DNA of 64,000 bases. Source: Candidatus Heimdallarchaeota archaeon. GTDB taxonomy: Archaea > Asgardarchaeota > Heimdallarchaeia > Heimdallarchaeales > Heimdallarchaeaceae. Position 1 is the stretch's first letter, and the number at the start of each line of letters is the position of its first letter. Below are positions 27,824 through 29,964 of the stretch, piece after piece. The DNA lies in NCBI GenBank assembly GCA_030603365.1, contig JAUVXV010000003.1, positions 32,001 to 96,000 on the forward strand, read 5' to 3'. The position numbers and the translations under genes are program-made. Below the pieces are notes generated by a model. That model searched no databases. It saw only the letters and a list, made by a program, of their open reading frames with translations, and was not told where the DNA came from.

Positions 27824-27884
27824 TCAATCTAAACCCACTAATTCCTTTTTTTATTATTTATCATACTTCTTTCCACTCTTTGTC

Positions 27885-27954
27885 TATTTTTGTCCCGAGA
27901 CAAAAATATTTTTAAATGATTAGGTGAATCATTTATTGTCTCGAGACGAAAATA
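27885..27954. repeat. Nested palindromes: two 24-bp dyads flanking a TATA-like element and a third inverted repeat
   Basis: TATTTTTGTC-CCGA-GACAAAAATA (27885-27908); ATTTATTGTC-TCGA-GACGAAAATA (27931-27954); TAAATGATT-AGGTG-AATCATTTA (27913-27935). Confidence 0.9.
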
Positions 27955-27965
27955 AGGTGATTGAA

Positions 27966-28835
27966 ATGAATGATAAAGAAAAAAAAGGACCAGGACGACC
28001 CAAAAAATATGCTACAGACGCTGAACGAAAAAAGGCCTATCGTGAGCGCAAGAAGGAAGAACGACAACAATGGGAAAAATCACGAGTTAAACGAATAGTC
28101 GAATTACAAGAAAGAGTTGATAGAATGGAAAAAACTATTGAGACATCAACATACGAAAAAGAAAAAAATAAAGATACTCATGAGCATTTTGTATACCTTG
28201 AGATAAAAGAACAAATCAAAGTTCGTTCAGCTAAATATACTCCATGCGAATTAGCTGAAATGCCACTTGAAGATCTCTTAAGGATTCAAAATACTCTGAA
28301 TTCTAGATATTATGGAAGCTATTATAATCCAATACAAGCAGCATTGGAAACAGCTGTCATGCCCTCAGTTGACCGAGAATTTGATTCACGTAAATCTGAA
28401 CTTGGATTAAAAACTCCTGAAGCGAAGCTAGCAAAGAAGTTAGCTAAAACTAAGGATAGAGCAACTCCCAAGACAGATCAAAAAATCGAGGAATATATAC
28501 AAAAACTCAAAGAAGAAGGTGTTGAATTAACATCTGAAGATGAGCTAGCAATTCGTTCAACAATGGAAAAAAGATCTGATGAAACTAGTAGACCATGGCG
28601 TGCTATAAAATCCCCTTATAGGACAGATCAGTTTATTGATGTTTTTCAAGAATTGATGTTACTCTCCAATGTTCAAGCTGAAATATCTAGTAGAGAACGA
28701 GAATCAAAGCTTGATTCAAGTATTGAAAAACTTGAAAAAAGATTAGAGGATTTGGAAAAAACCATGTCAGATGAGAAAGAGAAATCTGTCAGAGAAAGTT
28801 ATGCTAGACGGAAGGAGAAGAAAGATGGCAGCTGA
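27966..28835 (+). CDS. AT-hook + basic helix + coiled-coil protein, probable DNA-binding protein
   Basis: KKGPGRPKK AT-hook, ATDAERKKAYRERKK basic helix, heptads IVELQERVDRMEK and IEKLEKRLEDLEK. ATG 27966 behind GGTGA SD. Confidence 0.75.
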   Translation: MNDKEKKGPGRPKKYATDAERKKAYRERKKEERQQWEKSRVKRIVELQERVDRMEKTIETSTYEKEKNKDTHEHFVYLEIKEQIKVRSAKYTPCELAEMPLEDLLRIQNTLNSRYYGSYYNPIQAALETAVMPSVDREFDSRKSELGLKTPEAKLAKKLAKTKDRATPKTDQKIEEYIQKLKEEGVELTSEDELAIRSTMEKRSDETSRPWRAIKSPYRTDQFIDVFQELMLLSNVQAEISSRERESKLDSSIEKLEKRLEDLEKTMSDEKEKSVRESYARRKEKKDGS

Positions 28836-29964
28836 ATCACTCCAGACTAAACCTCTTGTTGTAGATAATGGAACTGGATTTACAAAAAACGGATTTGCAG
28901 GAGAAGATCAACCAAGAAGTGTTTTTCCAACAATTATAGGTTATCCTAAGCAACCGGTTGTAATGCCTGATGTTGAAGGATGGATAAGAGAACACTACAT
29001 TGGTGAAGAAGCAATGAATATGAGAGGTGTTCTCAAGCTAGTTTACCCCATGGAACACGGGCAAGTTAAGGACTGGCAAGCAATGGAAAACATTTGGCAT
29101 TACACGTTCTACAATGATCTAAGAGTTAATCCAAATGAACATCCTATAATGTTAACTGAACCCCCTTTGAATGATAATCGAAACAAGGAAAAGATGGCTG
29201 AGTTAATGTTTGAAATTTTCAATGTTCCAGCTATATATATCTCAATGCAAGCTATACTTTCACTCTATGCATCTGGAAGAACAACTGGACTTGTTGTAGA
29301 TGCAGGAGATGGAGTTATTCATATAGTTCCGGTCTATGAAGGTTTTGCGATATCCCATGCTATACACAGATGCGACATTGGAGGACGAGACATTACTCAT
29401 TATCTGCGAACTTTACTTAAACAACGAGGCTATTCACTGACAACTAGTGCAGAACGAGAGATTGTACGAGATATCAAAGAAAGATTATGTTACATTGCAT
29501 TAGATCCTGAAAAAGAATTAAGATTATCTGAAAGAGTCTCTGGAATGGAAAAGGATTATGTTATGCCTGATGGTGAAAATATAACAATAGGATCAGAACG
29601 ATTTATAGCACCAGAGTTGCTATTCAACCCTGGTGTAATTGGATCAGAAGAAGAACCTTTGGATGAGATAATTTACCGAATGGTACAGAATTGTGATGTT
29701 GATCTACGCAGAGATCTTTTTTCAAATATAGTGCTCTCTGGTGGAACAACAATGTTTCCAGGATTAAAGGAACGGCTACATAAAGAACTAGTTGAACTCG
29801 TTCCAGAAACAACTGAGGTAAAAATAATCTCACCTCCAGAGAGAAGATATTCCGTTTGGATTGGTGGAAGTATTTTAAGCTCTTTGAAAACATTCAATAA
29901 ATTATGGGTTACAAAAAAGGAATATAAAGAAACAGGACCTACAGCAGTTTATCGCTGTATTTAG
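28825..29964 (+). CDS. Eukaryote-like actin (Lokiactin-type Asgard actin)
   Basis: VVDNGTGFTKNGFAGEDQPRSVFP, YPMEHG, EHPIMLTEPPLN, LYASGRTTGLVVDAGDG, EREIVRDIKE, LSGGTTMFPG, PPERRYSVWIGGSIL. ATG 28825 behind GAAGGAG. Confidence 0.97.
   Translation: MAAESLQTKPLVVDNGTGFTKNGFAGEDQPRSVFPTIIGYPKQPVVMPDVEGWIREHYIGEEAMNMRGVLKLVYPMEHGQVKDWQAMENIWHYTFYNDLRVNPNEHPIMLTEPPLNDNRNKEKMAELMFEIFNVPAIYISMQAILSLYASGRTTGLVVDAGDGVIHIVPVYEGFAISHAIHRCDIGGRDITHYLRTLLKQRGYSLTTSAEREIVRDIKERLCYIALDPEKELRLSERVSGMEKDYVMPDGENITIGSERFIAPELLFNPGVIGSEEEPLDEIIYRMVQNCDVDLRRDLFSNIVLSGGTTMFPGLKERLHKELVELVPETTEVKIISPPERRYSVWIGGSILSSLKTFNKLWVTKKEYKETGPTAVYRCI

What the first reader, a model, noticed from the sequence alone, without database searches (positions are those of the whole stretch)
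27885..27954. Nested palindromic site upstream of the DNA-binding protein-actin operon
Two copies of a 24-bp dyad (consensus TATTTTTGTCTCGAGACAAAAATA) lie 46 bp apart centre to centre. Each has a GC-containing core flanked by A/T tracts. Between them are a TTTAAA TATA-like box and a perfect 9-bp inverted repeat, so the 70 bp can also fold as one long cruciform. I saw nothing comparable elsewhere in the window. A core dyad with AT flanks is what a dimer with basic helices plus AT-hooks would bind. Candidate operator or centromere-like site.
Basis: partly seen in the sequence, partly recalled or inferred. Interest (0 to 1): 0.75.

Follow-up and report, generated by a model that had tools for sequence, protein, structure and literature searches.

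The report
Conserved self-operator of Heimdall zipper-like regulator
Two copies of a conserved DNA palindrome bracket the promoter of a gene for a previously undescribed zipper-like DNA-binding protein in a Heimdall-group Asgard archaeon. They are most likely the switch by which that protein controls itself and, in this species, a second actin gene.

Summary
Two 22-24 bp dyads with core TTGTC-YCGR-GACAA lie 46 bp apart. They flank a TATA-like box 12-81 bp upstream of gene 27966-28835.

The dyads, the TATA box and the ribosome-binding site are conserved upstream of every ortholog with enough upstream DNA, down to about 50% protein identity, while the surrounding DNA is unalignable. In 25 genomes of the genus, all 31 exact 14-mer matches sit at this one promoter.

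The dyad also follows the protein's N-terminal module (GRP AT-hook-like motif, invariant basic helix, heptad zipper). It appears at shorter, divergent relatives in other Heimdall genera that have no actin nearby. A paralog has its own dyad with the same geometry.

Best reading: a paired autoregulatory operator. Dyad 2 lies over the predicted transcription start and dyad 1 abuts BRE/TATA.

The centromere (ParMRC-like) reading is not supported. There are only two sites, the locus is chromosomal and syntenic, and the regulator and sites persist in at least five species without the actin. The central 9-bp repeat and the "long cruciform" are not conserved.

The linked actin is a second paralog, 83% identical to the housekeeping actin, found in 11 of 25 genomes and always directly downstream.

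Binding is inferred, not shown. The scan had noted this same stretch in an overlapping window, not on other DNA.

The parts
27842..27859 (+). T-rich tract after the stop codon (27823) of the upstream 291-aa gene; probable archaeal oligo-T terminator that bounds the regulatory region
   Evidence: Sequence read. Inference from the established oligo-T termination signal of archaeal RNA polymerase. Not conserved among orthologs, whose upstream genes differ.
27885..27908 (.). Dyad 1 (distal operator site): TATTTTTGTCCCGAGACAAAAATA, abutting the BRE/TATA region
   Evidence: 35.6 bits. Conserved with its centre at -66 to -71 from the ATG in most orthologs (L006-L008 carry rearrangements). The right arm GACAAAAA is invariant in 16 of 16.
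27909..27917 (+). TATA-like box TTTTTAAAT; the A-tract of dyad 1 just upstream occupies the BRE position
   Evidence: TTTTTAWA is conserved at -53 to -59 from the ATG in most orthologs. Its promoter role is inferred from the archaeal TATA consensus. The transcription start was not mapped.
27913..27935 (.). Central 9-bp inverted repeat (TAAATGATT/AATCATTTA) with a 5-nt loop; specific to this genome and probably without function
   Evidence: Only 3 of 500 shuffles reach it here, but the best repeat is 6 bp or less and at chance level in 14 orthologous spacers.
27931..27954 (.). Dyad 2 (proximal operator site): ATTTATTGTCTCGAGACGAAAATA, spanning the predicted transcription start (about 27939)
   Evidence: 28.2 bits. 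Centre at -20 to -24 from the ATG, and the left arm TATTGTC is invariant in 16 of 16. The start position is inferred from the spacing of about 26 nt between TATA and start.
27955..27961 (+). Shine-Dalgarno sequence AGGTGAT, 4 nt before the ATG at 27966
   Evidence: GTGA is conserved in the footprint alignment.
27966..28835 (+). Gene for a 289-aa all-helical protein. Residues 8-15 are an AT-hook-like GPGRPKKY, 16-32 an invariant basic helix (DAERKKAYRERKK), 33-69 a heptad coiled coil, 71-160 a helical domain and 221-288 a long C-terminal helix. It is the candidate binder of the dyads.
   Evidence: The family has 56 members, all Heimdall-group and all named 'hypothetical', with no Pfam or NCBIfam family.
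28825..29964 (+). Second actin paralog (379 aa). Its start overlaps the regulator's stop by 11 nt, and its AAGGAG ribosome-binding site lies inside the regulator gene.
   Evidence: PF00022, 434 bits. 83% identical to the housekeeping actin on contig C1. The overlap was read. Present in 11 of 25 genomes of the genus; in all 10 relatives, as in G000, it lies directly downstream of the regulator.

Best explanation
The 70 bp are a paired autoregulatory operator built into an archaeal core promoter. The order is dyad 1, BRE/TATA, about 17 variable bp, dyad 2 over the transcription start, ribosome-binding site, ATG. The binder is most likely the product of the first gene of the unit (27966-28835). 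Its N-terminus carries a GRP (AT-hook-like) motif, a 17-residue invariant basic helix and a heptad coiled coil.

Inferred mechanism: a parallel dimer places the two basic helices in the major groove over the 10-bp core GTCYC|GRGAC. The GRP arms lie in the minor groove of the flanking T5/A5 tracts. Occupancy of dyad 2 blocks RNA polymerase recruitment at the start site. Occupancy of dyad 1 competes with, or modulates, TFB/TBP at BRE/TATA. The protein thereby sets its own level and, in this species, that of the translationally coupled second actin.

Shown: the sites, their conservation, their exclusivity to this promoter, and their co-occurrence with the N-terminal module. Inferred: who binds, dimerisation, the sign of regulation and the start site.
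For: (1) Phylogenetic footprint. In 14 aligned orthologous promoters only dyad 1, TTTTTAWA, dyad 2, GTGA and ATG are conserved. DNA upstream of dyad 1 and between the TATA box and dyad 2 varies. GTC/GAC at positions +-3 to 5 are invariant in 32 of 32 sites.
(2) Fixed geometry. Dyad centres lie at -66..-71 and -20..-24 from the ATG, the TATA box at -53..-59, and centre-to-centre spacing is 44-48 bp in most orthologs.
(3) Exclusivity. All 31 exact GTCYCGRGACRAAA matches in 25 genomes of the genus lie at this promoter, including G005 where the contig ends inside the gene. The reversed-pattern control gives 1 match. No other site in the own genome scores above 15 bits.
(4) The dyad tracks the N-terminal module, not the neighbourhood. 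About 200-aa relatives that share mainly the N-terminal module carry ATTGTCCCGAGAC right after their own TATA box (L045, L049), or a one-arm variant GTCCCGAGTC (L046-L048). In genus g10 the same dyad-TATA-dyad precedes an operon of a 172-aa ORF plus the regulator. In genus g17, 4 of 5 intergenic A/T-flanked dyads lie next to such a gene, while matches inside coding DNA do not.
(5) A paralog in this genome (contig C7) with a changed basic helix has its own conserved dyads of the same geometry, TTGTA-ATAT-TACAA.
(6) Protein features. K7, G10, R11, Y15, A19, R21, A24, Y25, R26, R28 and K30 are invariant. The AF2 model has one continuous helix over residues 18-69. AT_hook scores 19.0 and 18.0 bits against a cut-off of 17.4 in two relatives. 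bZIP_1 is hit by 12 of 17 members, in one register in most of the hits shown. The spacing [N/D]-x7-R-x9-L-x6-[ILV]-x6-[ILV] holds in 29 of 40 rows (two overlapping alignments), or 38 of 40 allowing a one-residue indel.
(7) No other regulator gene is conserved next to the site.
Against: No binding, dimerisation or transcript data exist. The window's own protein has PGRP, not RGRP, D in place of the bZIP Asn, and a one-residue insertion in the first heptad. It hits neither AT_hook nor bZIP models. bZIP scores are below the gathering threshold in every member. A regulator whose only strong target is its own promoter makes little sense in species that lack the actin, so other targets or a second function must exist. 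In two orthologs, insertions moved dyad 1 (L007, spacer of 111 bp between cores) or duplicated half of dyad 2 (L008), so strict pairing is dispensable.
Confidence: 0.65

Rival explanations
1. Same protein and same sites, but dyad 1 is an upstream activating sequence. A dimer next to BRE recruits TFB/TBP (positive autoregulation), as the zipper-like GvpE does at its 20-nt UAS. Dyad 2 caps expression at high protein levels, giving dual control rather than simple repression.
For: Dyad 1 ends exactly where BRE/TATA begins, and its TATA-facing arm is the invariant one. The GvpE UAS is two 8-nt portions directly upstream of BRE (PMC2241852 abstract). Dyad 1 is the better palindrome (35.6 against 28.2 bits), so it would fill first.
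Against: In the roughly 200-aa relatives the conserved proximal dyad lies between the TATA box and the start, a purely repressive position. The distal copy there is degenerate and 130-190 bp away. Dyad 1's A-tract overlaps the BRE position itself, which favours competition.
Confidence: 0.15
2. The dyads are an operator for a different, unlinked transcription factor. The adjacent protein is merely the regulated gene.
For: Binding by the adjacent protein was not tested. This protein has no recognised DNA-binding domain above Pfam thresholds.
Against: The site occurs only at promoters of genes carrying this N-terminal module. That holds across paralogs, genera and unrelated neighbourhoods. A paralog with a changed basic helix has a changed dyad. 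A separate factor dedicated to one promoter per genome would be unusual.
Confidence: 0.12
3. Centromere-like site of an actin-based segregation cassette, analogous to ParMRC. The protein is an adaptor that couples this DNA locus to filaments of the co-encoded actin and autoregulates as ParR does at parC.
For: Cis sites flank the promoter of an operon that encodes a DNA-binding protein and an actin-fold ATPase, with the two genes translationally coupled. Where present, the second actin always lies directly downstream. The protein has one strong target in the genome and 220 further conserved helical residues of unknown role.
Against: There are two dyads, not an iteron array. The locus is chromosomal with conserved MBL - regulator - [actin] - DUF389 synteny. 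At least five species keep the regulator and dyads without the actin, and have only the housekeeping actin. Other genera have the same operator with another cargo gene or none. The actin is a eukaryote-type actin 83% identical to the housekeeping one, not a ParM. The nearest orc1/cdc6 gene is 253 kb away.
Confidence: 0.05
4. A structural nucleic-acid element: a DNA cruciform, or an RNA hairpin in the 5' leader or a terminator, rather than a protein-binding site.
For: The 70 nt fold as single-stranded DNA at -17.4 kcal/mol, z -6.7.
Against: Positions +-2 of the dyads pair in only 7 of 32 sites (C/A in 8, T/G in 17). Symmetry is therefore kept at the purine/pyrimidine level, not as base pairs. 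The central repeat is not conserved. The leader hairpin is no better than shuffles (-3.8 kcal/mol, z -0.28). The upstream genes differ while the dyads stay with the downstream gene.
Confidence: 0.03

Closest known systems
Archaeal autoregulated repressors with operators over the core promoter (for example Lrs14, LrpA, MDR1, Phr; recalled from general knowledge)
   Same: Palindromic sites overlap BRE/TATA and the transcription start of the regulator's own transcription unit. Repression would work by blocking TBP/TFB or RNA polymerase recruitment.
   Different: Those regulators use helix-turn-helix or winged-helix domains. This protein has none, only a GRP motif, a basic helix and a coiled coil. 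The two sites bracket the TATA box at a fixed distance of about 46 bp.
GvpE of haloarchaea and its UAS (PMC2241852); AmzR of Methanosarcina (bioRxiv 10.1101/2025.05.05.652248)
   Same: Archaeal regulators described as zipper-like, binding promoter DNA with paired basic helices. The GvpE UAS is bipartite (two 8-nt portions) and lies directly upstream of BRE, as dyad 1 does.
   Different: No sequence relation was found. GvpE is an activator. AmzR carries PAS/GAF sensor domains and binds as a disulfide-linked oligomer. Neither is reported to have an AT-hook or a dyad-TATA-dyad layout.
Eukaryotic bZIP factors (Pfam PF00170, PF07716), especially Yap/Pap1-type basic regions
   Same: A basic region runs directly into a heptad zipper. 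The spacing N-x7-R-x9-L-x6-L-type holds in most family members. The Pfam bZIP models are the commonest sub-threshold hit, in one register in most of the hits shown. The predicted target is a short palindrome.
   Different: Scores reach at most 19.1 bits against cut-offs of 27.6 and 22.3. The Ala-Ala of the bZIP basic region is replaced by Arg-Lys. The window's protein has Asp for the Asn. A profile search of solved structures gives nothing significant (bZIP E 0.74, GCN4 E 4.9). The GRP...AYRERKK motif also occurs without a zipper in many small metagenomic proteins. The site core is 14 bp with A/T flanks, longer than bZIP sites.
parC/ParR/ParM (type II plasmid partition, plasmid R1; recalled from general knowledge)
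   Same: Cis sites lie on both sides of the promoter of an operon encoding a DNA-binding protein and an actin-fold protein, with autoregulation.
   Different: parC is 10 direct 11-bp iterons and ParR is ribbon-helix-helix. The gene order is parM-parR and the system is plasmid-borne. Here there are two dyads, an all-helical protein, a chromosomal syntenic locus, a eukaryote-type actin, and a dispensable link to the actin.
AT-hook (PF02178), as in HMGA-type proteins
   Same: A G-R-P core flanked by basic residues lies next to conserved T5/A5 tracts in the target. Two relatives with RGRP pass the Pfam cut-off.
   Different: It is a single hook fused to a sequence-specific basic helix. The window's copy reads PGRP and does not reach the cut-off.

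Membership tests
Autoregulatory operator in an archaeal core promoter | Dyad-symmetric site(s) more frequent than chance and specific to the promoter | tested here: met
   two sites at 35.6 and 28.2 bits, next best 14.9. All 31 exact 14-mers in 25 genomes lie at this promoter.
Autoregulatory operator in an archaeal core promoter | Sites overlap or abut BRE/TATA and the transcription start | tested here: inconclusive
   Adjacency to a conserved TATA-like box is shown. The transcription start is only predicted from spacing.
Autoregulatory operator in an archaeal core promoter | Conserved upstream of orthologs while the flanks diverge | tested here: met
   with orthologs down to about 50% protein identity.
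Autoregulatory operator in an archaeal core promoter | Site co-occurs with the regulator gene across paralogs and contexts | tested here: met
Autoregulatory operator in an archaeal core promoter | Product of the downstream gene binds the site and changes transcription | not testable with these tools
   Needs EMSA or footprinting and in vitro transcription. No protein-DNA prediction tool was available.
ParMRC-type partition locus | Centromere made of an array of repeated adaptor sites | tested here: not met
   Only two dyads are present. A few orthologs have an extra or partial copy.
ParMRC-type partition locus | Adaptor of the ParR ribbon-helix-helix type | tested here: not met
   There is no Pfam hit. 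In the AF2 model residues 1-17 are coil, followed by a 52-residue helix with no N-terminal strand.
ParMRC-type partition locus | Filament protein of the ParM/Alp family | tested here: not met
   The linked gene is PF00022 actin at 434 bits, 83% identical to the housekeeping actin.
ParMRC-type partition locus | Obligate linkage of adaptor, site and filament genes on a mobile replicon | tested here: not met
   The locus shows chromosomal synteny. At least five species have the adaptor and sites without the actin.
bZIP (PF00170/PF07716) | Score at or above the Pfam gathering threshold | tested here: not met
   The best scores shown are 19.1 bits against 27.6 (bZIP_1) and 16.5 against 22.3 (bZIP_2). 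The window's protein gives no hit.
bZIP (PF00170/PF07716) | Basic region contiguous with a heptad zipper, with spacing N-x7-R-x9-L-x6-L | tested here: inconclusive
   The strict form holds in 12 of 40 rows, the form with Asp for Asn in 29 of 40, and the form with a one-residue indel (the window's protein) in 38 of 40. The rows come from two overlapping alignments. With its basic cluster the pattern occurs once in 3590 ORFs of the own genome.
bZIP (PF00170/PF07716) | Parallel homodimer through the zipper | tested here: inconclusive
   The one co-folding job on residues 1-72 returned no verdict. The monomer model shows a continuous helix over residues 18-69.
AT-hook (PF02178) | R-G-R-P core with basic flanks scoring at or above the cut-off of 17.4 bits | tested here: inconclusive
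   Met in relatives L042 (19.0) and L045 (18.0), and just under in L035 (17.2). The window's PGRP copy does not hit.

The most novel reading that the evidence does not exclude
The protein is not only a regulator but also an adaptor. It marks one unique chromosomal site and, through its conserved residues 70-289, couples that site to filaments of eukaryote-type actin. This would be an Asgard counterpart of ParR/parC/ParM built on true actin. Its strongest hint is that the protein has a single strong target per genome and the second actin is always encoded directly behind it. A second, independent novel reading is that the N-terminus is a true archaeal homolog of the eukaryotic bZIP domain (my estimate about 0.1).
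Probability: 0.05. Interest if true: 0.9.

Novelty: new variant of a known kind. Interest (0 to 1): 0.55.

Why it matters
To my knowledge, no regulator-operator pair has been characterised experimentally in Asgard archaea. This locus offers a sharply defined pair: a 24-bp dyad and a 75-residue module, which can be tested with recombinant protein and oligonucleotides without a culture.

The regulator belongs to an undescribed, Heimdall-restricted family. Its DNA-binding end is built like a eukaryotic basic-zipper with an AT-hook, not like the helix-turn-helix regulators that dominate archaea. That bears on when eukaryote-style DNA-binding architectures arose.

In 11 of 25 species the operator also governs a second, faster-evolving actin. 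This is a handle on how the closest archaeal relatives of eukaryotes regulate cytoskeletal paralogs.

Tried and rejected
1. Co-folding of two copies of residues 1-72 returned no verdict (score 0.02, controls not run). It says nothing either way.
2. Foldseek against PDB and VIA-align wide on the AF2 model gave only generic long-helix matches (E at least 0.45; Z at most 6.5). No fold assignment was possible for residues 72-289.
3. A profile of the N-terminal 75 residues against the sequences of solved structures found nothing significant.
4. The ESM Atlas look-up of residues 1-70 scored at most 0.81, which is uninformative.
5. NCBIfam gave no family.
The contigs of distant homologs P0054-P0056 could not be fetched, and the search for related loci and the genome search were used instead.
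8. The two one-mismatch motif hits elsewhere in the genome (contigs C7 and C15) lie inside coding sequence and were rejected as chance.
9. A dif/Xer-type recombination site was rejected. The element comes in pairs at a fixed distance from a start codon and follows a gene family.
10. An origin-proximal centromere was rejected. The nearest orc1/cdc6 gene is 253 kb away.
11. The housekeeping actin promoter (contig C1) has no such dyad.
12. The listing of cluster members for ten small proteins carrying the GRP...AYRERKK motif gave no taxonomy or names.
13. Two literature searches for Asgard bZIP-like factors and for Heimdall actin paralogs found no description of this protein or site.

Full report
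**What is there**

The intergenic region 27824-27965 lies between a 291-aa membrane or secreted protein gene and a 289-aa gene. It contains, in order:
- a T-rich tract;
- dyad 1 (27885-27908, TATTTTTGTCCCGAGACAAAAATA);
- TTTTTAAAT (27909-27917);
- a perfect 9-bp inverted repeat (27913-21/27927-35);
- dyad 2 (27931-27954, ATTTATTGTCTCGAGACGAAAATA);
- AGGTGAT (27955-61);
- the ATG at 27966.

The two dyads are 86% identical over 22 nt and start 46 bp apart. The core pattern is found nowhere else in the window (4 strand-matches against 0.25 expected). A 24-nt weight matrix built from 32 orthologous sites was scanned over the whole 3.65 Mb assembly. It scores 35.6 and 28.2 bits at these two places and at most 14.9 anywhere else.

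**Organism and genes**

The window is contig C13:32001-96000 of a Heimdall-group Asgard MAG. The assembly is 89% complete with about 33% GC, and the genus includes 'Heimdallarchaeota archaeon AB_125'.

The gene after the site encodes a protein with no Pfam or NCBIfam family. A search of 5.8 billion proteins returned 56 relatives. All named ones are 'hypothetical', nearly all labelled Heimdall-group; one is labelled Thorarchaeota and one Asgard group.

Its stop codon overlaps by 11 nt the start of an actin gene (PF00022, 434 bits), whose AAGGAG ribosome-binding site lies inside the first gene. The genome has three actin-family genes. This one is 83% identical to the other close copy, on contig C1. 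Across the genus every genome has the C1-type actin, with all copies 83-84% identical to ours. Eleven of 25 genomes also have this second type (85-93% identical). In G000 and all 10 relatives it lies directly behind the 289-aa gene.

**Conservation of the site**

Orthologs of the 289-aa gene were found in 17 of 24 other genomes of the genus. An eighteenth, G005, has the gene cut by a contig end. The layout recurs wherever enough upstream DNA exists. Dyad 1 is centred at -66 to -71 from the ATG, TTTTTAWA lies at -53 to -59, and dyad 2 is centred at -20 to -24, followed by GTGA and the ATG.

In a 14-sequence alignment these are the only conserved blocks. DNA upstream of dyad 1, and the roughly 17 bp between the TATA box and dyad 2, vary freely. 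Protein identity falls to about 50% and the upstream neighbour gene changes.

G-T-C and G-A-C at positions +-3 to 5 are invariant in 32 of 32 sites. C-G at +-1 is kept in 27 of 32. Positions +-2 are Y and R, but pair in only 7 of 32 sites. Symmetry is therefore kept at the purine/pyrimidine level, as a protein would read it, and not as a base-paired stem.

The central 9-bp repeat is significant only in this genome (3 of 500 shuffles). It is at chance level in 14 orthologs. The strong single-strand fold of the 70 nt follows automatically from having two copies of one palindrome.

**Exclusivity**

The exact 14-mer GTCYCGRGACRAAA was searched in all 25 genomes of the genus. All 31 matches lie in the roughly 90 bp before this gene, and the reversed control pattern matched once. 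The two one-mismatch hits elsewhere in the own genome lie inside coding sequence. The promoter of the housekeeping actin has no such site.

**Who binds**

The most conserved part of the protein is residues 7-30. K7, G10, R11, Y15, A19, R21, A24, Y25, R26, R28 and K30 are invariant. The AF2 model (mean pLDDT 74.5) has residues 1-17 as coil and 18-69 as one helix.

The decisive evidence is co-occurrence, seen in four settings:
- Proteins of about 200 aa in other Heimdall MAGs share mainly this N-terminal module (RGRPRxY-TNA[EA]RKKAYRERKK plus heptads) and have unrelated neighbours. They carry ATTGTCCCGAGAC, or a one-arm variant, immediately after their own TATA box. A weaker copy lies 130-190 bp upstream.
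- In a sister genus the same dyad-TATA-dyad (46 bp) precedes a two-gene unit, a 172-aa ORF followed by the regulator.
- In a more distant genus, 4 of 5 intergenic, A/T-flanked dyads lie within 150 bp of a gene with this module. Matches inside coding DNA do not.
- A paralog in the window's own genome (contig C7) has a changed basic helix (KYARQKAYYERKK). Its orthologs carry different but equally conserved dyads of the same geometry, TTGTA-ATAT-TACAA and TGTAT-AA-ATACA, again on either side of a TATA box.

The site follows the module and changes when the module changes. This is the signature of a regulator acting on its own promoter. No other regulator gene is conserved nearby.

**Likely mechanism (inferred)**

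Archaeal TATA boxes lie about 26-28 nt before the transcription start. This is established knowledge, and is also stated in the abstract of PMC8553660 seen. It puts the start near 27939, at the left edge of the dyad 2 core. Dyad 2 would then span about -9 to +15, a position from which bound proteins block polymerase recruitment.

Dyad 1 spans about -55 to -32, and its invariant A-tract occupies the BRE position. A protein there would compete with TFB/TBP. Alternatively, like GvpE at its bipartite UAS directly upstream of BRE (PMC2241852), it could help them.

I favour net negative autoregulation. Dual control is the main variant. Because the actin is translationally coupled here, and separated elsewhere by only 25-60 nt with a strong ribosome-binding site, the operator also sets actin-2 expression.

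**Relation to bZIP and AT-hook**

No member reaches Pfam thresholds for bZIP. However, bZIP_1 is the commonest sub-threshold hit (12 of 17 N-terminal fragments, best 19.1 bits) and aligns in one register in most of the hits shown. AT_hook is passed by two relatives that read RGRP.

In that register most members obey [N/D]-x7-R-x9-L-x6-[ILV]-x6-[ILV]. The window's protein has Asp for the Asn and a one-residue insertion.

Three results argue against homology. The profile finds no solved bZIP significantly. The bZIP Ala-Ala is Arg-Lys here. The GRP...AYRERKK motif alone recurs, sometimes in tandem and without a zipper, in 243 representative proteins from metagenomes.

I therefore describe the protein as working like a basic-zipper with an AT-hook. 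I do not file it as a bZIP. AmzR (bioRxiv 10.1101/2025.05.05.652248) and GvpE are archaeal precedents for zipper-like regulators. I found no sequence relation to either.

**Centromere reading**

The layout recalls parC/ParR/ParM, but most defining features that could be tested fail:
- there are two sites, not an array;
- the protein is all-helical with no ribbon-helix-helix;
- the partner is a true actin, not a ParM;
- the locus is chromosomal, with MBL - regulator - [actin] - DUF389 synteny;
- at least five species keep the regulator and dyads with no second actin;
- no orc1/cdc6 gene lies within 250 kb.

One thing remains unexplained. This protein's only strong target is itself, and 220 further residues are conserved with no recognisable fold. 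Either weaker or hybrid sites exist, or the protein has a second job. I give the adaptor reading about 5%.

**Verdict**

This is a real, strongly conserved cis-regulatory element. It is most probably the self-operator of a new Heimdall-specific zipper-like regulator family, and in this species it also gates a second actin. Binding, dimerisation, the start site and the sign of regulation are inferred and need the experiments listed.

Noticed in passing
window 28825-29964; G000 contig C1:309232-310359: The genome has two close actin paralogs (83% identical) plus an Arp-like gene on contig C2. The C1 type is nearly invariant across the genus. The second type diverges faster (85-93% identical), occurs in 11 of 25 genomes and always lies directly behind the regulator gene. 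Several species have a gap of about 700 nt or another gene in its place, which suggests repeated loss.
   Followed up: partly
G000 contig C7:115865-116482 (-), locus L051/L052: A 206-aa paralog of the regulator (MPEEKSKGGRPRKYPKEDKYARQKAYYERKKK...) has its own conserved promoter dyads: TTTTGTAATATTACAAAA at about -110 and TGTATAAATACA after a TATA box. Orthologs occur in 9 of 24 genomes of the genus. This points to a small family of self-regulating factors with diverged specificity.
   Followed up: partly
L065:1501-2865 (G041, sister genus): The same dyad-TATA-dyad module (46 bp) precedes a 172-aa ORF with no Pfam family. A 246-aa version of the regulator follows it. The operator has thus acquired a different cargo gene in this lineage.
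   Followed up: partly
L006, L007 and L008 upstream regions (G010, G024, G008): The operator is rearranged in close relatives. G010 has a tandem duplicate of dyad 1 plus the TATA box 119 bp further upstream. G024 has an insertion of about 75 bp between the TATA box and dyad 2. G008 has a duplicated half of dyad 2 (ATATTGTCTCGTTATATTGTCTCGAGAC).
   Followed up: no
proteins P0076, P0095, P0101, P0113, P0150 and others: The motif GRPRxY-x3-A-x-R-x-[KR]-A-[YW]-R-E-R-[KR] occurs in 243 representative metagenomic proteins at E up to 0.001. Many are 40-150 aa, and some carry two or three tandem copies at the C-terminus of long proteins. It appears to be an undescribed, widespread short DNA-binding module with no Pfam model.
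   Followed up: partly
L104 (G081:C5, around 25516) and L093 (G074:C12, around 1558): Intergenic full or half dyads of the same type have no regulator-family gene within about 1.2 kb. In the distant genus g17 the 12-mer occurs at 1-5 places per genome, so the factor may have extra targets there.
   Followed up: no
window 27894-27899 and 27940-27945: The dyad cores are CYCGRG (CCCGAG and CTCGAG), which is the recognition sequence of AvaI-type enzymes, with XhoI for the second. This is probably coincidence, but it is convenient for cloning or for restriction-protection assays of binding.
   Followed up: no
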